This document shows positions 1-14,521 of a stretch of DNA of 17,187 bases, piece after piece (the stretch's first letter is position 1; every line of letters starts with the position of its first letter). The stretch lies in the NCBI GenBank assembly GCA_041477815.1, contig JBGOUV010000108.1, positions 1 through 17,187 of the forward strand, given 5' to 3'. The translations under genes were made by a program, and so were the position numbers. A model generated the notes under the pieces. It was not told where the DNA came from. It saw only the letters and a program-made list of their open reading frames with translations, and searched no databases. Source of the stretch: Terriglobia bacterium. Its GTDB lineage: Bacteria; Acidobacteriota; Terriglobia; Bryobacterales; JACQDG01.

Positions 1-236
1 CCGGGCGAGTTGGGCATCGGTGTCCATGCCCACAGTAATAACACATTAAGGTGGTAGATGTAAATGTTATTTATTTACGCTGCCTAATGCAAGATCTTGT
101 AGAAGCTGGCACCCTAAGCGACAAGTCCGCATTAATAAGGCAGATCAGCGAAGAGGATCAAGACAGAGTCTTCAGGAATCGAGGTAGCCAATGGCTGGAT
201 ATGCAGACGCGCAACTAGCCAAGCGATCCAAAGCGC

Positions 237-806
237 GTGAAATCGCTGCTTGAGATAGCAGACGGTGCAGGTGGGTTTCGCCAATTGGCTGGTGGCTCGT
301 ACGGAATCCATCTGAAGGCCGTCGTGGAGGCTTTCAAGGATGCCGCCCGTCTGGAGTTATTGGGTCCAGTGTATGTGATGAGGGAAGAGGGGCGGGTTCG
401 GGAGGTGCCAAAGATGGCCTTCAGAATTGAGATCACAGATGAGTTCAGGCTCGACGGCCTCGCAACCGAAATCTATCGCGACCTGATTCGATACGGACTG
501 TTTATGCGCGATGCACGCGGAAAGAGCGTCCGCGGCGCGATGGTGCCGCGGTTATACCTCCGTCGACTTTTGTTGCCTTATTGCGTGCTTGCCCTGTCGA
601 AGCGCGACAGCGTCATGATGTCCTGCAAGTGGTTCTGCGATCTTTTGTTGCATCCGGACACCTTTATGGACGCTTGGCGGAAGCACAGGCGGCCTGTGCT
701 CGCAGTGAGCCCCGAACAAGAGGAGTTGAACTTTGTGGAGGGTGATCAACAGCACGTAGAAGTCGGGTTTGATCCGGCTTACGACGACCTTCATGACGAG
801 GACTGA
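237..806 (+). CDS. Hypothetical protein (gene A of a two-gene cassette), with no recognisable domain and an acidic C-terminal tail (DPAYDDLHDED). The start is ambiguous. The ORF opens with GTG at 237 and no SD. An in-frame ATG at 414 (MAFRIEITDEF...) follows a strong GGGAGG SD at 7-nt spacing and would give a ~130-aa product.
   Basis: Open frame of 189 codons in a lower-GC (~55%) stretch. The stop is 17 nt before the ATG of the next + strand ORF, so co-transcription is likely. The SD/ATG at 414 was read directly. Confidence 0.45.
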   Translation: MKSLLEIADGAGGFRQLAGGSYGIHLKAVVEAFKDAARLELLGPVYVMREEGRVREVPKMAFRIEITDEFRLDGLATEIYRDLIRYGLFMRDARGKSVRGAMVPRLYLRRLLLPYCVLALSKRDSVMMSCKWFCDLLLHPDTFMDAWRKHRRPVLAVSPEQEELNFVEGDQQHVEVGFDPAYDDLHDED

Positions 807-823
807 CGCATTGGAGCAGCGCA

Positions 824-1927
824 ATGTTGAATAAGAGACTGGAAGACGCAGTCGACCTACCACGAGTCGTGCGCAGCCCCGAAAGGTTGGTGGTTGATGA
901 CACCGCCATCATAGCTGCGGTGGGGTTCGAAGAACGAACAATGGCCCTGGCGGCTATGCTTGGCCAGGTAGATTGTGTCCTTGGTCTGCTGGTCTATAAG
1001 GATTGGGACAAAGACAATCGAGTGGACAACCTCCTAGAGGCATATGCCGCGATCGGCATTGCGCCAACCGCCAGGAAGCCCCTCGACTACGACCGTTTCA
1101 ATCCCGATGGGTTCGGCGATACTCTGAAGGATTGGTTGAAAGAGACCGGTCGCCAGCGGGTTCTAGTGGACATCTCCACGATGTCACGGCTTGCCGTAAT
1201 GGTCGTGCTCGATGTCTGTCGGGAGTTGGAAAAGGACGTCACGATCTTCTATGCTGAGGCCGCTGAGTACGGTCCGTCTCAAGAAGAATATGAACGTGCG
1301 AAGGCTGGAGTCTACCCAAGACCGAGCATTCAGGTTTACAGTGGCGTGGGAGGCGTTGTCCGGTCCCGACGTCTGTCCAGCGTCGCCCTTCAGGGAGAAC
1401 CGATAGCTGTTATAGCGTTCATGTCAATGAATGAGGTGTTGACTCAGGCGCTAATAAACTGCATCTCTCCGAGCCGCCTATTTCTTGTCAACGGGCGCCC
1501 GCCGCTCCACTTCTGGCGAGAGCAAGCGACGGCTTGGATCCATGACGAACTGCGACGGGAATGGCCAGAGAGAGACAATCCGTGCGCCGCAACGAAGGAG
1601 GGGCTGGCCTTGCCGGAGCGCGTCACATCTACGCTAGACTACACCGAAACAGTCAGCGTGCTGCTTGATTTATATTGGACCAGTGCTGCTGAGTACCGGG
1701 TTGTTCTGGCGCCTACGGGCAGCAAGATGCAGAGCGTGGGTTGTTTCATTGCAAAAGGAATCCACACCGACATTCACGTCGAATATCCGACCCCCGAGAG
1801 CTTTTTACCCACGTACAGCAAGGGCATCGGGGGCCGCTGGATAGTTGATTTCGGCGTGCTCGATGCACTACTGAGAGGCTTACGGACCAAGATCATAGCG
1901 GAGCGCTTGATGGTACTGCGGACATGA
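824..1927 (+). CDS. Hypothetical 367-aa protein built from two tandem Rossmann-like modules. Each module resembles a CARF/SAVED-type sensor domain. Module 1 carries VLVDISTMSRLAV and module 2 carries VVLAPTGSKMQSVGCFIAKG. The second compares to the CARF signature D-x-T-G-G-T-K-x-M-S.
   Basis: ATG at 824 after a weak GGAG. The halves align at residues ~24-180 and ~190-345, each with a hydrophobic beta-strand (AIIAAVGFEERT / IAVIAFMSMNEV) followed by a [ST]-x-[GM]-S-[KR] loop. GC is atypical compared with the flanking core genes. The domain assignment is inferred from recalled motifs and was not searched. Confidence 0.6.
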   Translation: MLNKRLEDAVDLPRVVRSPERLVVDDTAIIAAVGFEERTMALAAMLGQVDCVLGLLVYKDWDKDNRVDNLLEAYAAIGIAPTARKPLDYDRFNPDGFGDTLKDWLKETGRQRVLVDISTMSRLAVMVVLDVCRELEKDVTIFYAEAAEYGPSQEEYERAKAGVYPRPSIQVYSGVGGVVRSRRLSSVALQGEPIAVIAFMSMNEVLTQALINCISPSRLFLVNGRPPLHFWREQATAWIHDELRREWPERDNPCAATKEGLALPERVTSTLDYTETVSVLLDLYWTSAAEYRVVLAPTGSKMQSVGCFIAKGIHTDIHVEYPTPESFLPTYSKGIGGRWIVDFGVLDALLRGLRTKIIAERLMVLRT

Positions 1928-2141
1928 AATATTGGGAGGATGGGAGTGGAGCCGTTGCCATTCCTGTTCAACCGAGCCCCGAAGGCCACTTGGTCGCGCA
2001 GTCGGCGTAACTGGCCGTGCCCGGCACCTTTGATCCCTGGCCATAACAGCCTTTCTCACCACCCTCGACGAAAGGCAGTTCAGGTCCACGCAGGCGGGTA
2101 CCAACCCCGCCTAGCCCGTGGCAAGAGTGCCTTGGGAGTCA

Positions 2142-2163
2142 CGTGGTGCAAATTTGCACCACG
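2142..2163. promoter_or_regulatory. Perfect 22-nt palindrome cgtggtgcaaatttgcaccacg. It could be a protein-binding site or a stem-loop in the convergent gap between the 367-aa gene and csrA.
   Basis: Read directly from the sequence. The arms are fully self-complementary and the core is GCAAATTTGC. Confidence 0.45.
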
Positions 2164-2186
2164 GCAAGTTGTTGATTCTGCGGGGT

Positions 2187-2216
2187 CCGGCAAATTTGCC
2201 AGGTCTTTATTTCTGC
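2187..2216 (+). terminator. Second GCAAATTTGC palindrome (ccggcaaatttgccagg) followed by the T-rich tract tctttatttct. It is a candidate intrinsic terminator for the + strand cassette and shares its core with the upstream palindrome.
   Basis: ggcaaatttgcc is a perfect 12-nt palindrome. A T-rich run follows immediately on the + strand. Its centre lies 42 bp from the centre of the first palindrome. Confidence 0.3.
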
Positions 2217-2248
2217 CACGGGCTGCTGGGACAGGCCAGAGGCCTTTC

Positions 2249-2482
2249 CTACAAATGCAACGCCTTGCGCAAGGCCGCCGCCGCCGCCCGGACCTGGGGA
2301 GCCTTCGGGTCTCCGACCACGGATCTCCGATTCAATTGGGAGATTTCCGTCCGATAGATCCCCACCTCGCGGGGAGCGTTCACTCCAATCTTGACCTGGT
2401 TGCGGCCGATTTCCAGGATCCGGACCTCGACCGAATCGCCGATCGTAAAGGACTCCCCCTCGTTGCGCCGGAACACCAGCAT
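2249..2482 (-). CDS. csrA: Carbon storage regulator CsrA (77 aa)
   Basis: The product MLVFRRNEGESFTIGDSVEVRILEIGRNQVKIGVNAPREVGIYRTEI matches the CsrA consensus, including GxxVxIGVxAP.EV.I.R.EI. The ATG at 2482 overlaps the fliW stop as ATGA. The tool's longer ORF (to 2629) has an Arg-rich N-extension with no homology and is taken to be non-coding. Confidence 0.85.
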   Translation of the reverse strand: MLVFRRNEGESFTIGDSVEVRILEIGRNQVKIGVNAPREVGIYRTEISQLNRRSVVGDPKAPQVRAAAAALRKALHL

Positions 2483-2895
2483 CAGAACACTTCCGCGGCG
2501 GTCGAGTACGAGCTGTCGGCTTGAATGACCTGCTTGGCGATCCACGTTTCGATGTTGACGATGATCGGCGCCAGCAGGTTGGCGGTGGCCGGTTGGGCGC
2601 CGTTGCCCAGGTTGAGGACCACCAGGCACAGAGCGTTGCCTCCCAGAGCCGGGTCCGAGGCGAAGCGCAGGAGCTTCCGATCCTCTTCGCCCACCTGGAT
2701 CTGGTAGTCCGGTCGAATGCTCCGCACCGACATCACCGGCAGGCAGATCTTGGGCTCTCCGAGCGAGGTCAGAAACACCATGGGGAGCAGCTCCTCATCC
2801 TGCAGCAGGACGAATTGATTCAGACCCTCGAATCCGGGAAGCCCTTCCGGAAAATCGAGCACTCCTCGGGGCAGCGGTTCCGCCTCTCTCATCAC
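2482..2895 (-). CDS. fliW: Flagellar assembly factor FliW (CsrA antagonist), 137 aa
   Basis: FPEGLPGFEGLNQFVLLQDEE matches the FliW signature (F..GipGFE.l..F.L...e). Size and position immediately upstream of csrA fit the conserved fliW-csrA pair. Tandem ATG codons at 2895 and 2892 follow AGGTG. Confidence 0.8.
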   Translation of the reverse strand: MMREAEPLPRGVLDFPEGLPGFEGLNQFVLLQDEELLPMVFLTSLGEPKICLPVMSVRSIRPDYQIQVGEEDRKLLRFASDPALGGNALCLVVLNLGNGAQPATANLLAPIIVNIETWIAKQVIQADSSYSTAAEVF

Positions 2896-2915
2896 CTATG
2901 GTATCGGCAGGGCGG

Positions 2916-4406
2916 TCAAGGGGATACAGGGTGGCGAAGGAACTCCAGGACTTCGATGACATGGGTAGGCGGGTCCCCGGGGCCGACCAGGCTCATTACG
3001 GCGCGGTCCAGGGTAGAGTACGGCACGAAGAGATGACGCTCCACCCGGTAGTCCCGGGTCAGGCGCCCGACCAGGTCCGGCAGGCCCGTCCCATAGCGGG
3101 TGTGGTGGACGTACCAGACCCGCGGGGGCCGATCGTGGCCGATTCGATCGAGGGCCTCCTCCCGGGCGGTATCGTCCGCCACGATCCTGACGTAGGGGAT
3201 ATTAGGCCCATGCACCGAATAGCCGGCGCTGGTCGAGAAGCGATCTACCAGGATATAGGCCGTGTCGCTCCCGGTATGCTCGTGAACCGTGCGGCTGATG
3301 GCCTCGAAGTTCACCAGGTAACCCTTGTTCAGGAAATCCTGTTTGCGGTAGTAGCTGCCGGCGCCGGCGGCCGCAACCAGGAGCAACCCGGCATAGGTAA
3401 GGGCCCCTAGGGGGCGGCGGATCTCCACGCCTCGCAGCAGGAACAGGTAGTAGAAAGGCAGTAGAAACAGGAGACGCGCCCCCACGAAGGCAAAGCTGAC
3501 CCAACTGGCGGCGATGAAGTATCCGACCGCGGCCAGCAGCAGAAATAACACGGGGGGATGAAGGCATTGGCGCCACGCGTTCCCGAGCGCCGCCCCGATG
3601 GCCGGCAGCAGGAGCAAGGCCACCACGGCCGCCCAGAGCGGGAGGGTCTCACCGAACTGGAACGCCACGAACGCATAGCCCAGCTTGAAGACGTTCTCCA
3701 CGGCCCAGTTACCGGCCACGCGGTAGGGATTCGTCGCCGCTACCAGGCCGGCGGTCTGGACCAGGGTGGCGATCCAGGGCAGGTAACCGAGGGTAATCCA
3801 CCCGAGGGTTCCCAGACTGCGCCACCGGTGGCGCCAGAGGGCCAGCGCCGTGGCGCTCGCCACCACCGCCAGACCCGGCAGATAGTGCGTGTAGAGCAGA
3901 ACCGTGGCCGCGGCGACGTAGCCGATCTGGAAGCGTCGCTTGCCGGGGTCGCGCAGCCAGTCCTGGGCCATCCGGATCGCCACCACCGCCACCAACAACT
4001 GCAGCGTGTAGGAGCGGGCCATGCGAGCGTACAGCAGCAGGCAGGGCGAGGTCACCCAGAGGATCAGGAACAGGGCCCGCCGTTCCCAGCGCAGATGTCG
4101 CAGCCAGAGGCGGTCGAACAGGACCGTGGCCGCCAGGGCCAGCAGCACCGACAGCGCCCGCGCGCGGAGCAGCCGGTTGCCCGGGAGCGGCAGCTTCCAC
4201 CACGCGCTGGTAAGGAAGTAGTAGAGCGGCGGATGCACATCCATTTGCACGGCGCGGACCATTTGCGCCGGCGGCCGGCCGGCCGTGTGCAGGGTAAAGC
4301 GCTCGTCGTCCCACAGCTGCAGCAGGTCCAGGCGGGGGGCTAGCAGCAGCGTCTGCGCGGCCAGGGCCAGCCAGAGAAGATGTCGTCTGATGAGATCCAT
4401 CCCCAT
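2916..4406 (-). CDS. Glycosyltransferase family 39 / ArnT-PMT-like membrane glycosyltransferase (496 aa) with a C-terminal soluble domain
   Basis: Multi-pass hydrophobic N-terminal ~320 aa carrying the DE...HPPLYYFL motif set typical of PMT/ArnT-type transferases (WDDERF...VHPPLYYFLTSAW). The stop is 20 nt upstream of fliW on the same strand. Confidence 0.75.
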   Translation of the reverse strand: MGMDLIRRHLLWLALAAQTLLLAPRLDLLQLWDDERFTLHTAGRPPAQMVRAVQMDVHPPLYYFLTSAWWKLPLPGNRLLRARALSVLLALAATVLFDRLWLRHLRWERRALFLILWVTSPCLLLYARMARSYTLQLLVAVVAIRMAQDWLRDPGKRRFQIGYVAAATVLLYTHYLPGLAVVASATALALWRHRWRSLGTLGWITLGYLPWIATLVQTAGLVAATNPYRVAGNWAVENVFKLGYAFVAFQFGETLPLWAAVVALLLLPAIGAALGNAWRQCLHPPVLFLLLAAVGYFIAASWVSFAFVGARLLFLLPFYYLFLLRGVEIRRPLGALTYAGLLLVAAAGAGSYYRKQDFLNKGYLVNFEAISRTVHEHTGSDTAYILVDRFSTSAGYSVHGPNIPYVRIVADDTAREEALDRIGHDRPPRVWYVHHTRYGTGLPDLVGRLTRDYRVERHLFVPYSTLDRAVMSLVGPGDPPTHVIEVLEFLRHPVSP

Positions 4407-4669
4407 GCGAACGAAGGGTGCTGTGCGGTTTTCTGGGCCTGGCCGCTGCCGCGTTCGGGGCGGAAGGCGTCGAACGGGGGCGAGTGGCCATTATCGCCCA
4501 TCGCGGGGCCCCCAACACGGCGCCCGAGCCTTCGTCGATCGACTCCCCCGGCAGGATACCGAGGCGCGCTGCCGGGAGGCGGTGGAGTGGGGCGCGCCGA
4601 AGGCATCCAGACCGGCTATCCCGACAAGGGGGCGCCGGCGCCGAGGACCACCGAACCGCCACCGCGCCC

Positions 4670-5873
4670 CTACGGTGACGGCTCGGCGCCGGCATTCTGC
4701 CGGCTCAACCGCGCCTCCAGCAGCAGGATCGCCAGCAGCAGGTAGACAATCGCCACGCCCCACGCGGGCACCCATACCGCCCACTCGATCCCCCACAGAT
4801 GCGCCAGCAGGCCCACCGACCAGGGCGCCAGCATTCCCCCGATCAGGGATAGCGAAAAGAAACCGTTGTAGAACCCCGGATGATAGTAGGGAAACTTTTC
4901 CCCCACGATGCCGATGATCAGCGGATAGAGCGCCCCTAATCCGCCGCCCAGGCAGATGGTTCCCACGGCCGCCCCTCCCTTGCCGGCCGCCTCCAGCAGC
5001 ACGACGCACCCGAACAGCGCCAGCCCTGTCCCTGCCGAGGCCAGACGAATCGGACGCCCCAGTCCGGGCGCCCGCGGCCCCAGCAGCTTCCCCAGCGTGA
5101 GGGCGGTCCAGTAGAGCACCAGCCCGAACAGGGCCCACTCCCGGTTCACGCCCAGCTTACGAATCCAGTACATCGCGATCCATCCGCCCGCCGCCCACTC
5201 CGAGCCGGACTCGAAGAACAGAGCCAAGGTCAGCAGCACCGCTACCGGCGACCGCGTGGTTCCCGGGGCCAGTCGCAGCGGCATGGCCTGCAGGGCCGGC
5301 TCGCCCAGCGCCCCCTGCCGCCAATACAGCACCGCCAGCAGCACCGGCAGTACCGCCGCCACCCTTAAAATGGTCGGCCGCGCATGGAACCATAACAGCA
5401 ACGTGTACGAAACCGCTCCGCAACCGAAGAAAGCCACCGCCAGACTCAGGATGGTCGACGCCATCGGCGCCGTCAGAGCGTCGAACATCAGCCAGGAAAC
5501 CCCGGAGGTGAGCATGCCGGTGGCAAATCCGAGCACCAGCAGCGGCAGCAGGAGCCAAAGCGGAGAAAAGATCCCGGTCACCGTCAGCAGGCTAGCCGCC
5601 GTCAGCCCGCACGCCATCACCAGGATCCCCCGCAGCCCCAGCTTCCCCAACATCCGCCGCGACACCATCGCCGCCGCAAAAATGCCCAGGTTGAACGCCA
5701 GAAAATAGTTTCCCGCCGTGGCCATGTCGAAGTGAAAGTAGTTCATCCATACCGGCAGCGACGCCCCCAACAGAGCCATCAGCGCGCCCAGCAGAAAGAA
5801 CCCTCCCATCGCCGACCGCACCAGTGCCGGCCTCGGCCCGGGCCGAGACAGGAAGATATTTCCGGATTCCATG
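4670..5873 (-). CDS. MFS transporter (~400 aa, 12 predicted TM). The start is set at the ATG at 5873 (MESGNIFLS) with an AGGAAAG SD. The longer ORF to 5956 adds an Arg-rich, non-protein-like extension.
   Basis: Continuous hydrophobic helices with the G-rich motifs of MFS proteins. The SD and ATG were read directly. The stop is TAG at 4670-4672. Confidence 0.75.
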
Positions 5874-5976
5874 CGCTTTCCTGATTCTACCGCCCGAGAT
5901 CGCAAGCCTCTCGCCACCAGCGCAATAGCTCGGTGTCGATCTCCGGCGGCGTTCATGGTACCTTACCTTCTGCGCC

Positions 5977-6948
5977 ATGACCCGCCGCGTCCTGTTGCTG
6001 TTCCCCTGGGTGGCCTTCGGGCAGTCGCCCTCCGTGGTCTCGGTCCAGAAGATCTGGGACCAGGGGCCCCACAACGCCTTCACCGACCTGCTCCGCTTCC
6101 GCGACGAGTGGTTCTGCGCGTTCCGCGAATCGGAGGCCCACGTCGGGGGCAACGGCGGCCTGCGGGTCCTGGTGTCCGCGGACGGCGACCACTGGAAGTC
6201 CGCCGCCCTCGTTACCGAGCCCGGCGTCGATTTGCGCGACCCCAAGCTCTCCATCACCCCCGACGGCCGCTTGATGATCGTAGCCGGCGGCTCTATTTAC
6301 GTCGGGCCCGCCGGAAGCCTGTCCTACCAGGGCCGCCAATCGCGGGTCGCGTTCTCGCGCGATGGCCGCCGCTGGACCTCCCCCCGGAAGATCCTGGCCC
6401 CCGGCGACTGGCTCTGGCGCGTCACCTGGCACCAACACCGCGCCTACGGCGTGTCCTACCTGGACACGAGCACGGCACCCCGCTCCGGCGCCCTCTACAC
6501 CTCCCGAGACGGCCTGCACTATACCCGCGTAGCCGACCTCGAGGTCCCCGGCGTGTCCGAGGTCACCATTCGCTTCCTCCCGGACCACACCATGGTCGCT
6601 CTGGCCCGCCGCGAGATCGATCCCCGCCACGGCTGGATCGGCACGAGCCCTCCCCCCTATACGCAGTGGACCTGGACCGAGATCCCCCACCGCCTGGGCG
6701 GCCCCAATTTCCTCGTCTTGCCGGACGGCTCCCTGCTTGCCGCCGGCCGCTCGCATGCGCCCCCCGGCCCCACCACCGTGGTGGCCCGCATGACTACCAA
6801 GTCCTACGAGCCGGTCCTCACCCTGCCCTCCGGAGGCGATACCTCTTACCCCGGCCTGGTCTTCCGCGACGGCCTGCTCTGGATGAGCTATTACTCCTCG
6901 CACGAGGGCAAGGCTTCGATCTATCTGGCCAAGATCCGCCTGCCTTGA
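5977..6948 (+). CDS. Secreted BNR/Asp-box repeat protein, sialidase-like glycoside hydrolase (323 aa)
   Basis: N-terminal signal peptide MTRRVLLLFPWVAFGQ. There are at least three Asp-box S-x-D-x-x-x-[WY] repeats (SADGDHWK, SRDGRRWT, SRDGLHYT). It is divergent from the MFS gene and shares a ~100-nt promoter region with it. Confidence 0.7.
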   Translation: MTRRVLLLFPWVAFGQSPSVVSVQKIWDQGPHNAFTDLLRFRDEWFCAFRESEAHVGGNGGLRVLVSADGDHWKSAALVTEPGVDLRDPKLSITPDGRLMIVAGGSIYVGPAGSLSYQGRQSRVAFSRDGRRWTSPRKILAPGDWLWRVTWHQHRAYGVSYLDTSTAPRSGALYTSRDGLHYTRVADLEVPGVSEVTIRFLPDHTMVALARREIDPRHGWIGTSPPPYTQWTWTEIPHRLGGPNFLVLPDGSLLAAGRSHAPPGPTTVVARMTTKSYEPVLTLPSGGDTSYPGLVFRDGLLWMSYYSSHEGKASIYLAKIRLP

Positions 6949-6997
6949 CCAATCTGACCTCCCGCGCTACGCTGGAATTGGAAGCGAGGAGGGAGTC

Positions 6998-7276
6998 TTG
7001 CCAACCGCCGTTGACATCGGAACCCTGATCACGCGGACTCGCGACGTGCGCGGGGGACGGCCGCGGATCGCCGGGACCGGCGTCACCGTAAGACGGATCG
7101 TCACCTGGTACAAGCAAGGACTGACCCCGGAACAAATCGCCGATGAAGTAGAACTATCGTTAGCGCAAGTACACGCCGCTTTAGCCTATTACCACGCCAA
7201 CCGCGACGAGATCGAGGCCGACCTGGCGGAAGAAGAGGCGGAAGTCAAGCGCTTGCTGAGCCGCCCCGAGCTTTGA
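6998..7276 (+). CDS. DUF433 family protein, the antitoxin-like partner of DUF5615 (92 aa), with a TTG start after GAGGAGGGA
   Basis: GGRPRIAGTGVTVRRIV...GLTPEQIADEV.LSLAQVHAALAYY matches the DUF433 consensus (G.P.I.GTRI.V..I....G.s.eeI...yp.Lt...i.aALaYA). A strong SD sits 4 nt before the TTG. Confidence 0.8.
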   Translation: MPTAVDIGTLITRTRDVRGGRPRIAGTGVTVRRIVTWYKQGLTPEQIADEVELSLAQVHAALAYYHANRDEIEADLAEEEAEVKRLLSRPEL

Positions 7277-7629
7277 GCTACATCCGACTCTACATCGACG
7301 AGGACTCTATGAGCCGTGCGCTCGTCCGAGTTCTGCGGGCTCGCAATGTGGACGTGATCACCGCTCGGGAGGCCGGGATGGTGGAGCGCCGAGACGAGGA
7401 GCACCTGGAGGCCGCCACCGCCGGAGGTCGGGTCTTACTCAGCTCGAATGTGGCCGATTTCTACAGAATCCACACCGCATGGCTGCAAGCAGGCAGATCC
7501 CACGCGGGCCTGATCCTGGCGCCTCAGCAACGATACTCGGTGGGCGAAAAGGCGCGCCAACTCTTGAAAGTGCTGGCCGAGAAGTCTGCCGAGGAGATCG
7601 TGGATCAGGCGTGGTTTCTCAGCCCCTGA
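7273..7629 (+). CDS. DUF5615 family protein (PIN-like, toxin-like partner of DUF433), 118 aa. The TTG start overlaps the DUF433 stop (TTGA).
   Basis: IRLYIDEDS...LRARNVDVITAREAG....DEEHLEAATAGGRVLLSSNVADF fits the DUF5615 pattern (LlDEnl....l..L...G.dv........g..D.e.l..A...gRvlvT.D.DF). The 4-nt overlap with the upstream gene is typical of TA pairs. Confidence 0.8.
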   Translation: MSYIRLYIDEDSMSRALVRVLRARNVDVITAREAGMVERRDEEHLEAATAGGRVLLSSNVADFYRIHTAWLQAGRSHAGLILAPQQRYSVGEKARQLLKVLAEKSAEEIVDQAWFLSP

Positions 7630-8195
7630 CTAGCCTTGGCCGAGGTGCTAGACTTCTTGCCTGGCGACCTTCCAGACCGAATCATATCCTCCGCCAAGTC
7701 TCGAACCAACTCCAGAACGCGCCGGCAATCGGAGCTTCTGAGGTTTGCCAACTGCTCCGGATCATGTGCTCCCATATTGCCGGTGAGCCGTGATGCGTTG
7801 GCAGCGTGATAGGACAGATCCGAAATGAGCCTCGCGCGGTGAGCAGCGTCGATTTTTTCCTTGAGACTGCCCCCAGTCATACCTGCGGTCTTCAAGAGTC
7901 CTTCGGTGAAGACGCGGGCCAGAATGAACGTCGCCGAGTGTACATCCACCTCAAAACATCGCACGGCATCATTGAGCACTCCCCTTAGACTCTTGGGCAG
8001 CCGCCCAGGAATCTTGAACTCGATCTTCCGAAGGCTCACATTAGTGACTTCCCCATCGGAGATCGTGAGCCGGAGAATCGTCCCACACTTGTCGCACTGA
8101 ATAGTGTCGTCGTACTCTCTTTTGCCAATGAGTGTCGTCGTGCCCTTGCAGCTCACACATCGAAAGGTCGGCACATTCTTCACTGCCAGAAACAA
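7605..8195 (-). CDS. Zinc-ribbon / DUF4145 domain protein (196 aa) in the lowest-GC patch of the window (~52%). The start is uncertain (TTG at 8195 or GTG at 8183/8174, none with an SD).
   Basis: N-terminal C-x2-C...C-x2-C (FRCVSCKG...QCDKCG) is followed by a helical domain matching my recollection of DUF4145 (ATFILARVFTEGLLK...KIDAAH...RLTGNMGAHD...DCRRVLELVRDLAEDM, compare A..lcR..lE..l....i..L...GN..aH). The call rests on recalled motifs. Confidence 0.55.
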   Translation of the reverse strand: MFLAVKNVPTFRCVSCKGTTTLIGKREYDDTIQCDKCGTILRLTISDGEVTNVSLRKIEFKIPGRLPKSLRGVLNDAVRCFEVDVHSATFILARVFTEGLLKTAGMTGGSLKEKIDAAHRARLISDLSYHAANASRLTGNMGAHDPEQLANLRSSDCRRVLELVRDLAEDMIRSGRSPGKKSSTSAKASQGLRNHA

Positions 8196-8278
8196 ACAGC
8201 ATTGTAGGATGCCAACCCCTGCGACGGCAACCTAAAGGGCGCTCCTCCATCGTTTGTTCTTGACAGGTCGCACCCCCT

Positions 8279-8297
8279 CGTGTCACACTGTGACACG
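8279..8297. promoter_or_regulatory. 19-bp perfect palindrome cgtgtcaca-c-tgtgacacg that ends at, and overlaps, the GTG start of the antitoxin gene. A TTGACA lies at 8260-8265. This is a candidate autoregulatory operator.
   Basis: Read directly from the sequence, with 9-bp perfect arms and a 1-nt spacer. Type II TA operons are classically autorepressed through palindromes at their promoters. Confidence 0.5.
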
Positions 8298-8524
8298 TGA
8301 AGCGCGCCTCGGTCCGAGATCTTCATCTGAAAACCAGCTCTATCGTCAGCGAAGTCACCACAGGCCAGACCTTTGTCATTGAAAAGAGGGGCGTCCCGGT
8401 CGCGGAACTGCGTCCCTTGCAAGGTTTGCCGTCCACCCGCCCGATGCCCAACCGCGAGCGCCTGATTACAAGGCTTCCCAAGGTCCCCGACACCGGCAGA
8501 ATCCTCGAAGAGGATCGCCCGTGA
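8297..8524 (+). CDS. Type II antitoxin of the Phd/YefM (prevent-host-death) family, 75 aa, GTG start
   Basis: KRASVRDLHLKTSSIVSEVTTGQTFVIEKRGVPVAELRP fits the Phd/YefM N-terminal pattern (s..elr.n...i...v..g..v.It.rG.pvavlvp). The stop overlaps the GTG of the downstream PIN gene (GTGA). Confidence 0.75.
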   Translation: MKRASVRDLHLKTSSIVSEVTTGQTFVIEKRGVPVAELRPLQGLPSTRPMPNRERLITRLPKVPDTGRILEEDRP

Positions 8525-8955
8525 GGCTCTACTTCGACTCTGCGTACGTGGCCAAGTGCTACTTGAATGAGCCGGAAGGCAAGGCAGTACGGACCATCGC
8601 CCGGAGTGCCGCGGGTCTGTTCTCCTCGGCGCTCTCGATCGCCGAACTTGCTTGTGTCTTTCTTCGGCACGTGCGCGAGGGTAAAATGACCGGCATGCAG
8701 GCTGACCGTTGCCGTTCCTTCCTGCTCGAAGATGTGCAAGCCGGGACGCTGGTGCTCTTCCCCGTTTCGGAACATCTTCTGTATCGCGTAGAGTCTCTCT
8801 GCAGAACTCTTCCTTCCCAGACGTATCTGCGAGCCGGCGACGCCATCCACTTGGTATCCGCCAGAGAAGCCGGCTTCACCCAAGTATGGTCGAACGACCG
8901 CCACCTGCTGGCGGCGGCTCGTTACTTCGGACTCGAAGGCAAGTCGCTCCCATGA
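8521..8955 (+). CDS. vapC: PIN-domain toxin VapC (144 aa)
   Basis: Conserved acidic PIN positions (LYFDSAYV, LNEPEG, AGDAIHL, WSNDRHL). It is translationally coupled to the upstream antitoxin. Its TGA overlaps the ATG of the next gene (ATGA at 8952-8955). Confidence 0.85.
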   Translation: MRLYFDSAYVAKCYLNEPEGKAVRTIARSAAGLFSSALSIAELACVFLRHVREGKMTGMQADRCRSFLLEDVQAGTLVLFPVSEHLLYRVESLCRTLPSQTYLRAGDAIHLVSAREAGFTQVWSNDRHLLAAARYFGLEGKSLP

Positions 8956-10115
8956 CCCCTCCGATGACTCGCCGCGACTGTCTCCGCTCGCTGGCCGCGT
9001 GGCTGGCCGCCTCTCCCCTGGCCGCCCAGCTCGTCTCCCGCAGCCGGCACGAGCGCATTCCCGGCCTCTCGGAGTTGACCACCACCTTCGAGTTCGAGCC
9101 CCTGGCCCAGGCCAAGATGCTGCGCACGGCGTTCGACTTTCTCTCCCTGGGCGTCGATGCGGAATTCACCCTGCGCCGTAATTCCCAGGCCTTCGATTGG
9201 GTCACCCTGGTCCCGCGTCTGGGCGTGAAGGTGGCTTCCGTGGACCTCTCCACCGAGATCTTCGGCCAGAAGCTCAACTATCCGATCCTTATCGCCCCTA
9301 CCGCCGGGCATATCCAGTTCCATCCGGAAGGGGAGCTCGAAACCCATCGCGGCGCCACCCTGGCCAAGACTACCTACATCGTCAGCTCAGGCACCAGCTT
9401 TCCGATCGAGAAGGTCGCCGCCGCCGCGGCCGGACCGCTGTGGTTCCAGCTCTACGCCCGCGAGACCCCCGAGGAAAGCCGCGAGCGCGTCGAGAACGCC
9501 ATGGCCGCCGGCTGCCGCGCCGTCGCCTTCACGGTGGACACACAGTACTTCTCCCACCGCGAGCGGCTCCTCCACGACCGCAACCTCGCCGTCGCCACCG
9601 GCCGACAGCGGCAGCAGGCCGAACCGGCGCCCCTGATCTACGGCAACCGCGGCCAGAACCCCAACCTTACCTGGAAGTTTTTCACCGCCGTCAAAGCCTA
9701 CACCAAGGTCCCCCTACTGGTGAAAGGCATCCTCACCGCCGAGGACGCCCGCCTGGCCGTCGAGAACGGCGCCGACGGCATCGTGGTCTCGAATCACGGC
9801 GGGCGCTACCTCGACTACGCCCCCGCCACCATCGAGGTGCTCCCCGAGATCGTGGACGCCGCAGGGGGCCGCGTCCCGGTGCTGCTCGACAGCGGCGTCC
9901 GTCGCGGCACGGATGTCCTGAAAGCCCTGGCCCTGGGCGCCAAGGTGGTCTGCTGCGGCCGCGCCCCGCTCTGGGGACTCGGCGCGTTCGGCGCTCCCGG
10001 CGTGGCGCGCGTCCTCGACATCCTTAAGACGGAGCTTACCTTGGCCATGGCCCAGACGGGCCGCCCCAACCTCGCCTCGCTCGACCGCACCGCGGTCGCC
10101 ACCGACTTCCCATGA
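8952..10115 (+). CDS. FMN-dependent alpha-hydroxy-acid dehydrogenase/oxidase (L-lactate dehydrogenase / glycolate oxidase family) with an N-terminal twin-arginine (Tat) signal, 387 aa
   Basis: MTRRDCLRSLAAWLAASPLAAQ (RR motif followed by a hydrophobic stretch). Family motifs present are TLRRN, PILIAP, TVDTQ, VKGIL and SNHGGRYLD. The long ORF from 8709 is an in-frame run-in through vapC. The ATG at 8952 overlaps the vapC stop. Confidence 0.8.
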   Translation: MTPPMTRRDCLRSLAAWLAASPLAAQLVSRSRHERIPGLSELTTTFEFEPLAQAKMLRTAFDFLSLGVDAEFTLRRNSQAFDWVTLVPRLGVKVASVDLSTEIFGQKLNYPILIAPTAGHIQFHPEGELETHRGATLAKTTYIVSSGTSFPIEKVAAAAAGPLWFQLYARETPEESRERVENAMAAGCRAVAFTVDTQYFSHRERLLHDRNLAVATGRQRQQAEPAPLIYGNRGQNPNLTWKFFTAVKAYTKVPLLVKGILTAEDARLAVENGADGIVVSNHGGRYLDYAPATIEVLPEIVDAAGGRVPVLLDSGVRRGTDVLKALALGAKVVCCGRAPLWGLGAFGAPGVARVLDILKTELTLAMAQTGRPNLASLDRTAVATDFP

Positions 10116-11020
10116 CTCTTCCGCCCCTCAGCGAGCTGGTCAACGTTCTCGAAGTGGAGGACGCCGCCCGTGGGGTGCTCAGCCGCGCCGTCTACGACCG
10201 CATCGCGCAGGGGGAACGCGGGCGCGAGGCGTTTGACCGCATCACCTTCCGTCCCCGCATGCTGGTCGACGTCTCTCGCCTGGACCTGTCGCTCGATCTG
10301 TTCGGCCAGAAGCTCCACGCCCCGATTCTGGTGGCCCCCATGGCCCGCCACCGCCGCGTCCACGCCGAGGGCGAAGCCGCCACGGGGAGGGGCGCGGAGG
10401 CCGCCAAGACCGTGCTGGTCGTGAGCCGCGACCCCAGCGTCCCGTTTGACCAGGTCGCCTCGCGTGCCACCGCGCCACTCTGGGCGCAGGTTCCTCCCGA
10501 TCCCACCGCAGCCTCGCGCCTGGTGGCCGCCGGGGCCAAAGCCCTGGTGGTCAACGCCGGCCCGGACCTCGACTGGGACACCCTGGGCCGCCTCCGCAAG
10601 GCTGCCGGCTCAGTCCCAGTACTACTGAAGGGCGTCCTGAGCCCCGATCAGGCCGTCAGCGCCATCGAAAAGGGCGCGCAAGGTCTCATCGTCTCCAGTC
10701 ACGGCGGCAAGCTGGTCCCCAGCCTGCCTGCCACGCTCGACGTCCTGCCGCGCATTACGGAAGCTGTCCAGGGCCGCGTACCGGTTCTGGTCGACGGCGG
10801 CTTCCGCCGCGGTACCGACATTCTCAAAGCCCTCGCCCTGGGCGCCAAGGCCGTACTGGTTGGCCGCCCCGTCCTCTACGGGCTCGCCGCGTATGGCCCC
10901 GACGGCGTCCGCGCCGTCCTCGAAATGCTGCAGTCCGAGCTGGCCCTGGCCATGGGTCTGAACGGCCGGCCGAACCTGGCCGCGGTGGACCGTGCCGTGG
11001 TCAAGGTCCACCGCCGCTGA
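10112..11020 (+). CDS. Second, shorter and degenerate FMN-dependent alpha-hydroxy-acid dehydrogenase paralog (302 aa, cytoplasmic)
   Basis: Canonical N-terminus (FRPRMLVDVSRLDLSLDLFGQKLHAPILVAPMA), VLLKGVL and SSHGGK. It lacks the TVD loop segment of paralog 1 and has K in place of the substrate-binding R after HGG. Its ATG overlaps the stop of paralog 1 (ATGA at 10112-10115). Confidence 0.8.
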   Translation: MTLPPLSELVNVLEVEDAARGVLSRAVYDRIAQGERGREAFDRITFRPRMLVDVSRLDLSLDLFGQKLHAPILVAPMARHRRVHAEGEAATGRGAEAAKTVLVVSRDPSVPFDQVASRATAPLWAQVPPDPTAASRLVAAGAKALVVNAGPDLDWDTLGRLRKAAGSVPVLLKGVLSPDQAVSAIEKGAQGLIVSSHGGKLVPSLPATLDVLPRITEAVQGRVPVLVDGGFRRGTDILKALALGAKAVLVGRPVLYGLAAYGPDGVRAVLEMLQSELALAMGLNGRPNLAAVDRAVVKVHRR

Positions 11021-11026
11021 GTTGCG

Positions 11027-12154
11027 ATGCCGCACATTGCCGTAATCGGAGCGGGTGCTTGGGGGGGCTGGTCGGCGCTGCACCTGCGGCGATCCGGCGC
11101 CCAGGTAACGCTGCTGGACGCCTGGGGTCCCGGCAACGCGCGGGCCAGCTCCGGCGGCGAGACCCGCATCATCCGGGCCATTTACCCCGATCGCGTCTAC
11201 GTCGAAATGACCGTGCGCTCGTTCCAGCTCTGGGAGGAAAACGGCAAGCGCTGGAATCGAAATCTGCTGCGGCGGACGGGCTTTCTCCGCCTGGTTTCCA
11301 AAGACGACCCGCTGAACCGGTCGGCGGCCCCATTGCTGCGCGAAGCCGGAATCCCCCACGAGGAGCTCACTCCCGGCGAAGCCGCCCGCCGGTTCCCGCA
11401 AATCAACTTCCAGGGTATCGACCGGATCTTCCACGAAAAGACCGCCGGATACCTGTTTGCCCGGCGAGGGTGTGAAGCCGTGCTCGCGGGTTTCGTGGGC
11501 GAGGGCGGGACCTACCGGCAAGTGGCCGCGACGCCCGGCCCCTTGCACGGCGGCCAGATGCAGGGGCTGGCGCTTTCCGATGGATCCACCCTGGTGGCTG
11601 ATCAGTACCTGTTCGCCTGCGGCCCCTGGCTGGGCCGCCTGTTTCCGGAGGTCATCGGGAGCCGGATCAGCCCGCACCGCAAGGAAGTTTATTTCTTCGG
11701 TGTGCCGGCCGGCGACGGGTCCTTCCGCGAAGATCGCTTCCCCTGCTGGGGCGACAGCGTCGAGCACTACTATGGATGCCCGGATATCGAGTGGCGCGGG
11801 TTCAAGATCGGCGAAGACACGCGCACCGTGCCGTTCGATCCCAACTCCGGAGACCGGACGCCCACCCCCGAGGCCCTGCGGACTGTCCGCCAATTCGTCG
11901 CCTTTCGTTTTCCCGCCCTAAAGGGGGCGCCGCTGGTCGAAGCACGGGTGTGCCAGTACGAGAATACTCCGGATAGGCACTTGATCCTGGACCGGCATCC
12001 CGGAGCCGGGAATGCCTGGCTGGCGGGGGGCGGCTCGGGTCACGGCTACAAGCTGGGAGCGGCGGTGGGCGAGCGGGTGGCCCAAATGGTCCTGGGCAAG
12101 CGCGGCGTCGATCCTTTCTTCGCGCTCGCCCGACCGGCGCTGAAGGGGCTATAA
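11027..12154 (+). CDS. FAD-dependent oxidoreductase of the sarcosine-oxidase (MSOX/MTOX) / DAO family, 375 aa
   Basis: N-terminal Rossmann motif IAVIGAGAWGGWSALHL...GETRIIRAIY and C-terminal GGGSGHGYK. It starts 7 nt after the preceding gene. Confidence 0.85.
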   Translation: MPHIAVIGAGAWGGWSALHLRRSGAQVTLLDAWGPGNARASSGGETRIIRAIYPDRVYVEMTVRSFQLWEENGKRWNRNLLRRTGFLRLVSKDDPLNRSAAPLLREAGIPHEELTPGEAARRFPQINFQGIDRIFHEKTAGYLFARRGCEAVLAGFVGEGGTYRQVAATPGPLHGGQMQGLALSDGSTLVADQYLFACGPWLGRLFPEVIGSRISPHRKEVYFFGVPAGDGSFREDRFPCWGDSVEHYYGCPDIEWRGFKIGEDTRTVPFDPNSGDRTPTPEALRTVRQFVAFRFPALKGAPLVEARVCQYENTPDRHLILDRHPGAGNAWLAGGGSGHGYKLGAAVGERVAQMVLGKRGVDPFFALARPALKGL

Positions 12155-12193
12155 TCCAGAAGGGTTCCGGGTCGGGCAAGTGAAGGAGGGGGA

Positions 12194-13273
12194 ATGAGCC
12201 GCCGCTTTCTCGCGTCAGTCTGGAGCGACGTAGCGCGCGTACTCTGGCGTGCCGCGCCATGTCTTTGGCGTCACAGATCACGCGCCCTGGTAATCGCCGT
12301 CTCTTTGCTGGCGCCGGCGCCGGTCGCGGGCCAAACCGCCGCATGGACTCCACCCCTTACCGCGGACGGCCAGCCGGACCTGCAGGGAGTCTGGGTGAGC
12401 AACAGCGCGACGCCATTGGAACGGCCGAGCGGACTGGAAGGAAAAGCGTCTCTGACGGACGCGGAAGTGGCGGTGCTGAAACAGCGGGCGGAGCGGCTCT
12501 TCAAGGACGGGGCTAGTGCCTACGCCGGCGGAGATAATGTTTTCCTGGCCGCCTTGGCCGATCTCAAGCGCTACGAGGGCGTTTCGACCAGCGATTCCCT
12601 GGATATGATTGAGAGAGAGTTCAGCAACAGAACGTCTCTGATTGTAGATCCGCCCGACGGGAAGGTCCCTCCCTTGACGCCCGCCGCGCAGCAGAGGCAG
12701 GCCGCGGCTGCCGTGCCGCGCCCTCCCGCGGGACCGGAAGACCTCAGCAACGCGAACCGGTGCATCACGTTCGGCGTCCCCCGGCTGGGCGGTAACTTCG
12801 GCGCCGGCCCCTATAGTTACTACCAGATTCTGCAAAATCGCGATTACGTGGTGCTGGTCATGGAGGTGATCCACGAAGCCCGCCTGATTCCGTTGGACGG
12901 CCGCCCGCATCTGCCACCGGGCATTCGCCAGTGGAACGGGGACTCGCGAGGCCGCTGGGAGGGGAAGACCCTGGTGGTCGATACCACTAACTTCTCCCCG
13001 CGGAGCAACTTCATGGGATCCGCCGAAAACCTGCATTTAGTGGAGCGCTTCACCCGGGTCGCCCCGGACACGGTGAACTACGAGATTACGCTGGACGACC
13101 CGACTACCTGGACCAAACCGTGGACGGCCCTGGTTCCCCTGCGGCGAACCTCGGAGGACATTTATGAGTTCGCCTGCCACGAAGGGAATCCTCTCGTGAT
13201 GCAGGGCATGCTGGGTGCGGCCCGCGCGGACGAGCAGGCCGCCCAGGAAGCGGTGGCGAAGCCTGCCAAGTAA
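12194..13273 (+). CDS. Secreted hypothetical protein (359 aa) of no family I recognise
   Basis: Strong SD GAAGGAGGGGG 5 nt before the ATG. A signal peptide (RHRSRALVIAVSLLAPAPVAGQ) follows a long n-region, and the coding periodicity is clean. It is flanked downstream by a relic of the FAD-oxidoreductase gene. Confidence 0.65.
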   Translation: MSRRFLASVWSDVARVLWRAAPCLWRHRSRALVIAVSLLAPAPVAGQTAAWTPPLTADGQPDLQGVWVSNSATPLERPSGLEGKASLTDAEVAVLKQRAERLFKDGASAYAGGDNVFLAALADLKRYEGVSTSDSLDMIEREFSNRTSLIVDPPDGKVPPLTPAAQQRQAAAAVPRPPAGPEDLSNANRCITFGVPRLGGNFGAGPYSYYQILQNRDYVVLVMEVIHEARLIPLDGRPHLPPGIRQWNGDSRGRWEGKTLVVDTTNFSPRSNFMGSAENLHLVERFTRVAPDTVNYEITLDDPTTWTKPWTALVPLRRTSEDIYEFACHEGNPLVMQGMLGAARADEQAAQEAVAKPAK

Positions 13274-13291
13274 ATCGACGTCTCCCCCACC

Positions 13292-13393
13292 AGAAGCTCC
13301 CGCGATTTCCAGCGTAGGGACCGGATCTTCCACGCAAGGACCGCCGGATGCTTGTTGGCCCGGCGAGGGTGTAAAGCTGTACCGGCAGGTTGC
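13292..13393 (+). pseudogene. Decayed ~100-nt relic of the FAD-oxidoreductase gene. It corresponds to 11395..11527, has a ~33-nt internal deletion, and is ~86% identical over the 76-nt ungapped core.
   Basis: Aligned by eye. Perfect shared runs are gaccggatcttccacg (11420-11435 = 13318-13333), gaccgccggat and gcccggcgagggtgt. The relic still translates in frame to FQRRDRIFHARTAGCLLARRGC against FQGIDRIFHEKTAGYLFARRGC. Confidence 0.6.
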
Positions 13394-13670
13394 CTCTACT
13401 CGCGCTGATACACCGGAACCTCGCAACCCACGGGCAGCCGCACCCGCCCGATCTCGAAGTAGGGCAGCCGGTGCTCCGCCGGCGCCTGCGCCACTTGGGG
13501 ATCCCGCTGATCCAGCGCTCTGGACACGTTCGGAACCTGGGGCTCTTGCCATCCGCGGGGGAGCCAGGTGGCCCTGGATCCAAACCGCATTGGCCCCCGG
13601 AGGCCGGGGATCCACAGGAGCAGCTTGACCCGCACTCCAGCAATTGTACGCGCTACACTATGAGCGCGCC

Positions 13671-14498: not shown

Positions 14499-14521
14499 TT
14501 GGCGCGAGGAGTCGCCTGGCT

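What the first reader, a model, noticed from the sequence alone, without database searches (positions are those of the whole stretch)
1..2250. Low-GC two-gene cassette of unknown function at the window edge, a candidate novel sensor-type system
Genes A (237..806) and B (824..1927) have no recognisable function. They are tightly linked with a 17-nt gap. They sit in a ~55% GC block preceded by an A+T-rich leader (1..236, ~45% GC), while everything from csrA onward is ~68% GC. The cassette converges on the fliW-csrA operon and is followed by its own palindromic elements. Composition and gene content both argue for a horizontally acquired accessory module. Gene B looks like a ligand sensor (see the next finding), but neither gene contains an obvious enzymatic effector. 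That combination resembles minimal signalling-type anti-phage or regulatory systems that are not yet catalogued. The cassette may continue to the left of the window.
Basis: partly seen in the sequence, partly recalled or inferred. Interest (0 to 1): 0.75.

Follow-up and report, generated by a model that had tools for sequence, protein, structure and literature searches.

The report
Broken remnant of kinase–CARF defence operon
The supposed two-gene cassette is the decayed tail end of a widespread but untested three-gene system (DNA methylase, a large kinase/ATPase, and a nucleotide-sensor protein). Only the sensor gene is intact here, so this copy is a poor example of a family already in defence-gene catalogues.

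Summary
Both ORFs exist and the block is GC-poor (55.6% against 65.5% for the rest). 'Gene A' (237..806), however, is not a gene. Window 84..806 is the last ~240 codons of a ~900-aa protein made of a Ser/Thr kinase, an ORC/Cdc6-like AAA+ ATPase and a C-terminal domain ('K'). It is cut at position ~85 by unrelated DNA and interrupted by an in-frame TAG at 216-218.

In 36 genome loci from about ten phyla, B follows K, often with a 4-nt overlap. K in turn follows an SPPY-motif amino-methyltransferase (M). The order is M-K-B, and defence genes lie close to it in several loci. PADLOC already holds a fused 'CARF6--CARF_STK_AAA' model, so the family is catalogued. I found no experimental study of it.

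My verdict is a degraded member of a known, uncharacterised kind, of modest interest.

The parts
1..85 (.). Unrelated AT-rich (45.8% GC) segment at the contig end. It forms the junction that truncates the K gene and is probably the end of a repeated or mobile element.
   Evidence: Window 3..85 is 90% identical to metagenome contig L043 110..192. L043 then diverges exactly where homology to the K gene begins. There is no similarity to K in any frame. No tRNA or Rfam hit was found in L043.
84..806 (+). 3' remnant (about 240 codons, frame 3) of the K gene. It corresponds to residues ~662-899 of the ~900-aa Ser/Thr-kinase + ORC/Cdc6-like AAA+ protein, that is, only its C-terminal, possibly winged-helix, domain.
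216..218 (+). In-frame TAG nonsense codon inside the conserved K remnant.
   Evidence: The window reads AAC TAG CCA where L001 reads AAC CAA CCA (Gln). The 44 codons upstream of it are still homologous.
237..806 (+). 'Gene A' of the finding. It is the longest ORF downstream of the nonsense codon and not an independent gene.
   Evidence: No Pfam, NCBIfam or PADLOC hit. NCBI calls only a 130-aa ORF here.
824..1927 (+). Gene B: an intact 367-aa tandem-CARF sensor protein with no fused effector. A GGAG Shine-Dalgarno sequence lies at 813-816.
1928..2248 (.). Spacer between B and csrA (59.8% GC). It holds a 22-bp perfect palindrome (2142-2163) and a second GCAAATTTGC (2190-2199). It is not shown to belong to the cassette.
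   Evidence: Homology to L001 ends at 1928. No terminator-like site and no Rfam family was found here.
2249..2895 (-). Host flank: csrA (2249..2482) and fliW (2482..2895), convergent with B.
   Evidence: Pfam CsrA E 3.8e-19 and FliW E 2.6e-28.

Best explanation
Window 1..2250 holds the decayed 3' end of a horizontally acquired three-gene operon, M-K-B.
- M is an SPPY-motif amino-methyltransferase.
- K is a ~900-aa fusion of a Ser/Thr protein kinase, an ORC/Cdc6-like AAA+ ATPase and a C-terminal, probably winged-helix, domain.
- B is a monomeric tandem-CARF protein.

In this contig K has lost everything upstream of residue ~662 at a junction with unrelated DNA (position ~85). It also carries a nonsense codon (216-218). 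M is not on the contig. Only B is intact. 'Gene A' is a pseudogene fragment. This copy can have neither kinase nor ATPase activity.

Inferred mechanism for intact systems:
- M marks host DNA.
- K is the motor and effector. Its AAA+/winged-helix part engages DNA or oligomerises, and its kinase phosphorylates host or phage targets, by analogy with kinase-based defences.
- B is the allosteric sensor. It binds a nucleotide-derived ligand in the pocket between its two CARF halves and switches K on or off. CARF works this way on the AAA+ domain of RtcR and on the effectors of type III CRISPR systems.
- The ligand and its source are unknown, because no cyclase is encoded nearby.

Shown: the identity of the fragments, the CARF fold, the synteny, the motif conservation and the truncation. 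Inferred: the defence role, the regulatory direction from B to K, and the ligand.
For: Truncation and pseudogene:
- Frame 3 of 84..806 aligns to the C-terminus of the L001 K protein, with TAG in place of Gln.
- blastn homology runs 84..1928.
- Positions 1..85 match the unrelated contig L043 up to the same boundary.

Synteny:
- In 36 genome loci, B was found in 34, K in 32 and M in 30. The usual order is M-K-B.
- 13 loci have a 4-nt K/B overlap.
- The same arrangement appears.

K domains:
- Pfam Pkinase and PF24389 ORC-CDC6-like.
- PADLOC PDLC01925 'CARF6--CARF_STK_AAA' at E 5e-22. B matches positions 891-1003 of the same model.
- At least 95% conservation of GxG, AxK, HGDLHxGN and DFG, of Walker A GxRGCGKT, and of Walker B DD in 29 full-length K proteins.

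B as a sensor:
- The fold searches.
- Fusions of the B module to HisKA-HATPase_c, Metallophos and TIR.

Defence context:
- GmrSD/NsnA-like, MmeI/PglX-like, McrBC, DISARM DrmMI and type I/IIG RM genes lie next to the operon.
- A SIR2 gene is inserted between M and K in L024.

Acquisition:
- 55.6% GC against 65.5% for the rest.
- The nearest relative, at 77% nt identity, lies in a MAG assigned to a different lineage.
Against: - No phage-challenge or biochemical data exist for any member that I could find.
- No ligand-producing enzyme is linked to the system.
- A thymidylate synthase (ThyX or ThyA) sits next to B in 13 of 31 loci. This could point to a nucleotide-metabolism role rather than a defence role.
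- The neighbour census is heterogeneous, and many neighbours are housekeeping genes.
- The nonsense codon and the junction rest on a single assembly and could not be checked against reads.
- dN/dS of the K remnant is as low as that of B (0.15 against 0.12). The decay is therefore recent, or the fragment is still constrained.
Confidence: 0.75

Rival explanations
1. A (or a 51..806 product, if the TAG is an error or is read through) plus B is a functional minimal two-gene module. In this reading a stand-alone K C-terminal domain works with the CARF protein and the kinase and ATPase are dispensable.
For: A second, independent locus (L033, Verrucomicrobiae) has M followed by a 293-aa ORF that covers only K residues ~633-864, then B. 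The window fragment keeps all 35 invariant residues of the C-terminal-domain alignment. Its dN/dS is 0.15.
Against: - The TAG lies inside the conserved region, and 44 homologous codons are stranded upstream of it.
- The 5' boundary is a junction with foreign DNA, not a start codon with a ribosome-binding site.
- 29 of 32 K genes are full length (over 800 aa), with conserved catalytic motifs.
- The many short 'MIQL...' proteins in the database come from contig-edge gene calls.
- Low dN/dS is expected for a recently broken gene.
Confidence: 0.08
2. The truncation and the stop codon are assembly or sequencing artefacts at a contig end. In this reading the real genome carries an intact M-K-B operon.
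For: The break sits 85 nt from the contig end. The terminal 85 nt recur in another metagenomic contig, so they may be a repeat, and repeats commonly break or mis-join assemblies. This is a MAG-type contig with a single record.
Against: The element and K share only a few bases at the junction, far less than an assembler's k-mer. The TAG differs from the homologous CAA at two positions, so it is not a single miscall. L006 and L033 show that broken K genes occur naturally.
Confidence: 0.1
3. The M-K-B family is not an anti-phage system. In this reading it is a nucleotide-pool or DNA-metabolism signalling module: B senses a (deoxy)nucleotide metabolite and K relays the signal by phosphorylation, in functional connection with thymidylate synthesis.
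For: Two non-homologous thymidylate synthases flank B. ThyX lies directly downstream on the same strand in 10 loci, and ThyA lies convergent in 3 loci. No cyclase is linked. A B module is fused to a histidine kinase, which is a typical regulatory architecture.
Against: - The obligate partner is a DNA-type amino-methyltransferase with the SPPY motif.
- Effector-type genes (SIR2, DUF262/GmrSD-like) are inserted inside the operon in some loci.
- TIR fusions of the B module exist.
- Restriction, BREX-like or McrBC neighbours, integrases and transposases occur nearby.
- The taxonomic distribution is patchy and the GC content is foreign.
Confidence: 0.12
4. One reading: a complete, uncatalogued two-gene sensor system with no enzymatic effector.
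For: A and B give no Pfam or NCBIfam match above threshold.
Against: A is a gene fragment. The partner protein carries kinase and ATPase domains. PADLOC already holds models for both parts.
Confidence: 0.02

Closest known systems
CARF6 clade of the CARF superfamily, as held in PADLOC-DB v2.0.0 (models 'CARF6--CARF_CARF_CARF' and 'CARF6--CARF_STK_AAA'). From memory, these derive from the CARF/SAVED census of Makarova et al., NAR 2020, which I could not open.
   Same: B matches 13 CARF6/CARF3 models; the best is PDLC01917 at E 2.9e-10. Full-length K homologues match the STK-AAA part of PDLC01925 (E 5e-22), and B matches its C-terminal CARF part. The fused model has the same order as the K-B gene pair.
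   Different: Here the two parts are separate genes. In this window the STK-AAA part is reduced to its last ~240 codons. The clade is a bioinformatic family, and I found no tested function for it.
Can1 (TTHB144, PDB 6SCE), the cA4-activated CRISPR ancillary nuclease with two CARF domains in one chain. Also Card1/Can2, Csa3, Csm6 and Cam1.
   Different: Sequence identity is only 10-14%. B has no nuclease, HEPN, HTH or membrane effector domain. No cas genes or Cas10 appeared among the commonest neighbour families. Ligand binding is untested.
Type 2 BREX / Pgl (PglW kinase, PglX methyltransferase, PglY ORC/Cdc6-type ATPase, PglZ phosphatase); domain descriptions in PMC12839542.
   Same: Both combine a DNA methyltransferase, a Ser/Thr kinase and an ORC/Cdc6/STAND-type AAA+ ATPase. 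M matches a PglX model weakly (E 4.6e-7).
   Different: No PglZ, BrxA or BrxB. M is a small (~390 aa) SPPY enzyme and not a PglX-size protein. Kinase and ATPase are fused in one protein, and a CARF protein is added. There is no significant PADLOC match to PglW or PglY.
Kinase-based defences PD-T4-6 (a single-gene Ser/Thr kinase) and the MADS component mad6.
   Same: The kinase domain of full-length K matches PD-T4-6 models (E down to 4e-13) and mad6 (E 2e-11).
   Different: The similarity is confined to the ~170-residue kinase core. PD-T4-6 has no AAA+, CARF or methylase partner. The window copy has no kinase domain at all.
RtcR (CARF domain + sigma-54 AAA+ ATPase + HTH). This is an analogy from my own knowledge and was not tested here.
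   Same: It gives a non-CRISPR precedent for a CARF sensor that gates an AAA+ ATPase.
   Different: RtcR is a single transcription-factor polypeptide with one CARF domain. It has no kinase and no methylase, and no homology to it was shown here.

Membership tests
CARF superfamily (gene B) | Rossmann-like CARF fold | tested here: met
CARF superfamily (gene B) | Profile match to curated CARF models | tested here: met
   PADLOC CARF6 PDLC01917 E 2.9e-10, PDLC01915 E 7.5e-8, CARF3 PDLC01847 E 1.9e-5. Pfam PF19810 HFX_2341_N is only sub-threshold, at 20.3 bits against a cutoff of 30.
CARF superfamily (gene B) | Two CARF units forming one ligand pocket (a homodimer or an intramolecular pseudo-dimer) | tested here: inconclusive
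   There are two Rossmann-like halves (about 22-145 and 194-345), and 231 residues superpose on two-CARF Can1. The conserved loops after beta-1 and beta-4 of each half are GFE.R / D.S.MS and FMS.N / P.GSK. The pocket geometry was not inspected.
CARF superfamily (gene B) | Binds a cyclic oligonucleotide or related ligand | not testable with these tools
   This needs binding assays with purified protein.
Type III CRISPR or CBASS signalling module | A linked signal synthase (Cas10 or CD-NTase) and an effector domain fused to the sensor | tested here: not met
   B has no extra domain. No cas or Cdn family is among the 25 commonest PADLOC or Pfam families in 112 neighbour ORFs from 31 loci. Only the top 25 families are visible, so rare cases are not excluded.
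M-K-B three-gene system (CARF6-STK-AAA type) | Full-length K with kinase catalytic motifs and Walker A/B | tested here: not met
   The window keeps only K residues ~662-899 and has an in-frame TAG. The motifs lie at residues 34-187 and 328-504 of K.
M-K-B three-gene system (CARF6-STK-AAA type) | SPPY amino-methyltransferase immediately upstream of K | not testable with these tools
   The contig ends 85 nt beyond the break. M is present in 30 of 34 related loci.
M-K-B three-gene system (CARF6-STK-AAA type) | Intact B directly downstream of K | tested here: met
   B is 367 aa and aligns over 100% of its length with 367-aa homologues at up to 80% identity. Every invariant column is retained. It lies 17 nt after the K stop codon.
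BREX type 2 / Pgl | PglZ phosphatase together with PglW, PglX and PglY | tested here: not met
   K homologues give no PglW, PglY or PglZ match. M matches PglX only at E 4.6e-7. No PglZ appears in the conserved gene set.
PD-T4-6 / MADS | The kinase protein of that system (PD-T4-6), or the eight-gene mad set | tested here: not met
   Only the kinase core of full-length K homologues matches. The window sequence itself has no kinase domain.

The most novel reading that the evidence does not exclude
M-K-B, often with a thymidylate synthase next to it, is an unrecognised methylation-linked, kinase-executing immune system of soil bacteria. In this reading a cyclase-less tandem CARF senses a non-canonical ligand, for example a phage-induced nucleotide or dUMP/dTMP-related metabolite. 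The recurrent 'K C-terminal domain + B' remnants (this window and L033) would be a still-functional minimal sensor module and not debris.
Probability: 0.1. Interest if true: 0.7.

Novelty: new member of a known kind. Interest (0 to 1): 0.3.

Why it matters
For this window it matters little. The locus is a broken copy, and its correct annotation is 'pseudogene fragment + orphan CARF gene'.

The family behind it is more interesting. It is a compact operon that joins a DNA methylase, an active-site-conserved Ser/Thr kinase fused to an ORC/Cdc6-like ATPase, and a CARF sensor with no linked signal synthase. It is spread over about ten phyla, including an archaeon, and appears experimentally untouched. 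Working out what a CARF domain senses outside CRISPR and CBASS, and how it gates a kinase, would extend the known logic of nucleotide-signalling immunity. A cultured carrier of the full operon (Bradyrhizobium sp. Oc8, locus L022) makes that testable.

Tried and rejected
- Pfam, NCBIfam and PADLOC on 'A' and on ORF 51..218 gave nothing.
- NCBIfam on B gave nothing.
- A profile search of B against PDB sequences gave only noise, with the best E at 0.055 to a designed protein.
- An exact look-up of B's contig found nothing on record. Cluster look-up gave no names or accessions, so the host taxon was not established.
- The word-index search with 'A' returned only short proteins (331 aa or less). 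I first considered these as stand-alone genes, then rejected most as contig-edge calls that begin at the first conserved Met ('MIQL'). L040 is an isolated internal fragment without B.
- Whole-window repeat search found no second copy of 1..85. A viral-contig scan for it was empty. tRNA and Rfam scans of L043 and of window 1..2700 were empty.
- The promoter and terminator scan of 1..2700 found nothing above shuffled expectation.
- The fold search of the K C-terminal domain gave only weak winged-helix hits on a mediocre model.
- Literature: 'CARF6', 'HFX_2341', ORC-CDC6 + kinase + CARF, and several kinase/methylase/CARF term combinations gave no description of this operon. The CARF census paper (PMC7498327) is not held. 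The BREX-related systems of PMC12839542 are centred on DUF499 and are different.
- The idea that PADLOC 'mad2' hits among neighbours were the thymidylate synthases was tested and rejected.
Full report
**Observation**

The block is GC-poor. 84..1927 is 55.6% GC, and 2249..17187 averages 65.5%. The measured values are 48.7% and 65.5%, and a second low-GC patch lies at 7600-8400. csrA (2249..2482) and fliW (2482..2895) lie on the minus strand and converge on B. The spacer holds a perfect 22-bp palindrome (2142-2163) whose core, GCAAATTTGC, recurs at 2190-2199. The window is an entire 17,187-bp NCBI contig, so nothing lies to the left of position 1.

**Gene A is a fragment of a larger gene**

Homologues of B on long contigs are preceded by a 900-925-aa protein. 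In these three loci its stop codon overlaps B's start by 4 nt. The protein carries Pfam Pkinase and PF24389 ORC-CDC6-like.

- Frame 3 of window 84..806 aligns end to end with the last ~240 residues of that protein from locus L001.
- At the DNA level, window 84..1928 matches L001 9288..11126 at 77% identity. The match stops exactly at B's stop codon.
- Inside the aligned region the window has TAG (216-218) where L001 has CAA. ORF 51..218 and ORF 237..806 are two pieces of one reading frame.
- Left of position ~85 the similarity to K ends. Instead, window 3..85 is 90% identical to an unrelated 1.8-kb metagenomic contig (L043), which diverges at the same boundary.

I read 1..85 as the end of a repeated or mobile element whose insertion or recombination removed the 5' two-thirds of K. 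That would also explain why the assembly stops there. This reading is an inference, because no transposase is visible. NCBI's own gene call inside 'A' is only 130 aa. dN/dS against L001 is 0.15 for the remnant and 0.12 for B, so the damage is recent relative to their divergence.

**Gene B**

B is intact. It aligns over its full length with 367-aa homologues at up to 80% identity, and it keeps all 55 invariant columns of an 82-sequence alignment.

- Pfam gives only a sub-threshold HFX_2341_N match, and NCBIfam gives nothing.
- PADLOC-DB gives 13 CARF matches. The best is 'CARF6--CARF_CARF_CARF' at E 2.9e-10 for the N half, and other CARF6 models cover the C half.
- The AlphaFold2 model is confident, with pLDDT 90.4 and pTM 0.92.
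- Foldseek gives probability 1.0 to the CARF domains of Cam1, Csa3 and Csm6.

B is therefore a monomeric tandem-CARF protein with no effector domain. A profile of the family finds 1011 representatives at E <= 1e-3 among 1.84 billion proteins, most of them 340-380 aa. The few longer ones fuse the B module to HisKA+HATPase_c, to a calcineurin-like phosphoesterase, or to TIR. That is the pattern expected of a sensor input domain.

**The system**

A scan of one genome per species returned 36 loci. They come from Acidobacteriota, which is the majority, and from Gemmatimonadota, Planctomycetota, Desulfobacterota, Nitrospirota, Verrucomicrobiota, Bacteroidota, Burkholderiales, Bradyrhizobium and the archaeon Methanoperedens.

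- Clustering all ORFs gave three conserved families: B in 34 loci, K in 32 and a ~390-aa methyltransferase M in 30. The usual order is M-K-B on one strand, and 13 loci have a 4-nt K/B overlap.
- M matches N6_N4_Mtase and type II MTase models. All 28 full-length copies carry an SPPY motif IV.
- In 29 full-length K proteins the kinase motifs (GxG, AxK, HGDLHxGN, DFG) and the AAA+ motifs (Walker A GxRGCGKT, Walker B DD) are at least 95% conserved.
- K matches PADLOC PDLC01925 'CARF6--CARF_STK_AAA' at E 5e-22, and B matches the C-terminal part of the same model. A fused version of the pair is therefore already catalogued.
- K's kinase core also resembles PD-T4-6 and mad6.

**Context of the homologous loci**

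Defence genes lie close to the operon in several loci:
- A GmrSD_N/NsnA-like gene between M and K in L001.
- An SNF2 helicase plus an MmeI/PglX-like enzyme in L002.
- McrBC in L042.
- DISARM DrmMI, type I and type IIG RM, and PD-Lambda-4 among the other neighbours.
- A ParA-like ATPase plus a SIR2 (ThsA-like) gene between M and K in L024.

No Cas10 or CD-NTase appeared among the commonest neighbour families.

One association was unexpected. A thymidylate synthase lies next to B in 13 of 31 loci. ThyX sits directly downstream in 10 loci, and the non-homologous ThyA sits convergent in 3. Broken K genes also occur elsewhere. K is split in L006, and it is reduced to a 293-aa C-terminal ORF in L033.

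**Mechanism**

Shown:
- The window copy lacks the kinase, the ATPase and, on this contig, the methylase.
- Only the sensor gene is whole.

Inferred for intact systems (confidence about 0.5):
- M marks self DNA.
- K is the executing enzyme. It has an AAA+/winged-helix DNA-engaging or oligomerising motor and a kinase output.
- B binds a nucleotide-type ligand and gates K allosterically. The translational coupling, the existing fusion and the other output fusions of the B module all point this way.
- The ligand and its source are unknown.

The rival readings are scored separately. They are a functional minimal C-terminal-domain + B module, an assembly artefact, and a metabolic rather than defensive role linked to thymidylate synthesis.

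**Comparison and novelty**

By fold and profile, B is a member of the CARF superfamily and of PADLOC's CARF6 clade. It is not a CRISPR or CBASS signalling module, because neither a synthase nor a fused effector is present. It is not Pgl/BREX type 2 (no PglZ, and no PglW or PglY homology), nor is it PD-T4-6 or MADS.

I found no paper describing or testing the M-K-B operon in the held library. The CARF census that presumably named CARF6 could not be opened, so I attribute the name to it from memory only.

**Verdict**

This is a degraded new member of a catalogued but uncharacterised kind. The 'two-gene, effector-less, uncatalogued' reading does not. I score interest at 0.3. The family would deserve more, but this copy is a remnant.

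Noticed in passing
window 2142-2163 and 2190-2199: A perfect 22-bp palindrome, CGTGGTGCAAATTTGCACCACG, and a second copy of its core GCAAATTTGC 42 nt downstream. They lie between the convergent B and csrA genes. They look like paired operator sites, but no gene starts nearby. Two or more matches arose in 9 of 200 shuffles.
   Followed up: partly
window 7600-8400 (ORF 7605-8195, minus strand): A second low-GC patch (55.8%) containing a 196-aa DUF4145 protein. It may be another acquired gene.
   Followed up: partly
window 8709-10115 and 10112-11020: Two adjacent FMN-dependent dehydrogenase paralogues with overlapping stop and start codons. An internal 124-nt direct repeat lies at 9822-9945 and 10727-10850 (74% identity).
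   Followed up: partly
window 11408-11492 and 13307-13391: An 85-nt direct repeat at 84% identity, 1.9 kb apart. Its nature is unknown.
   Followed up: no
L007 9108-10166, L009 9054-10010, L010, L015-L017, L019, L020, L022, L024 (ThyX); L011 9080-9871, L014 6066-6854, L032 10133-10924 (ThyA): A thymidylate synthase sits next to the B homologue in 13 of 31 loci. Two non-homologous enzyme families (ThyX and ThyA) are involved, which suggests a functional link or a shared insertion hotspot. No thy gene follows B in the window.
   Followed up: partly
L024 2954-4841; L001 4984-6715: Extra genes are inserted between M and K. L024 has a ParA-like ATPase plus a SIR2 (ThsA-like, E 2e-20) gene. L001 has a DUF262/GmrSD_N (NsnA-like, E 2e-38) gene plus a 196-aa ORF. 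They look like swappable auxiliary effectors.
   Followed up: partly
P0136, P0185, P0147, P0150 (representatives): The B (tandem-CARF) module occurs fused to a histidine kinase (HisKA+HATPase_c), a calcineurin-like phosphoesterase, a TIR domain, and an unassigned ~380-aa extension.
   Followed up: partly
L033 7154-8035; L006 2523-5273: Other naturally broken K genes. A Verrucomicrobiae MAG keeps only the C-terminal domain, as a 293-aa ORF between M and B. A Bryobacteraceae MAG has K split into 688-aa and 212-aa pieces.
   Followed up: partly
L043 110-192 (metagenome contig OCZT010148741.1): The terminal 85 nt of the window recur at 90% identity upstream of what looks like a c-type cytochrome ORF (CSGCH motif). 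The element they belong to was not identified.
   Followed up: partly
L004 / L001 (PLYC01000021.1): The closest full operon (77% nt identity to the window) sits on a 245-kb contig binned as 'Candidatus Doudnabacteria'. That is an unlikely host for a contig of this size and content, so the bin assignment may be wrong.
   Followed up: no
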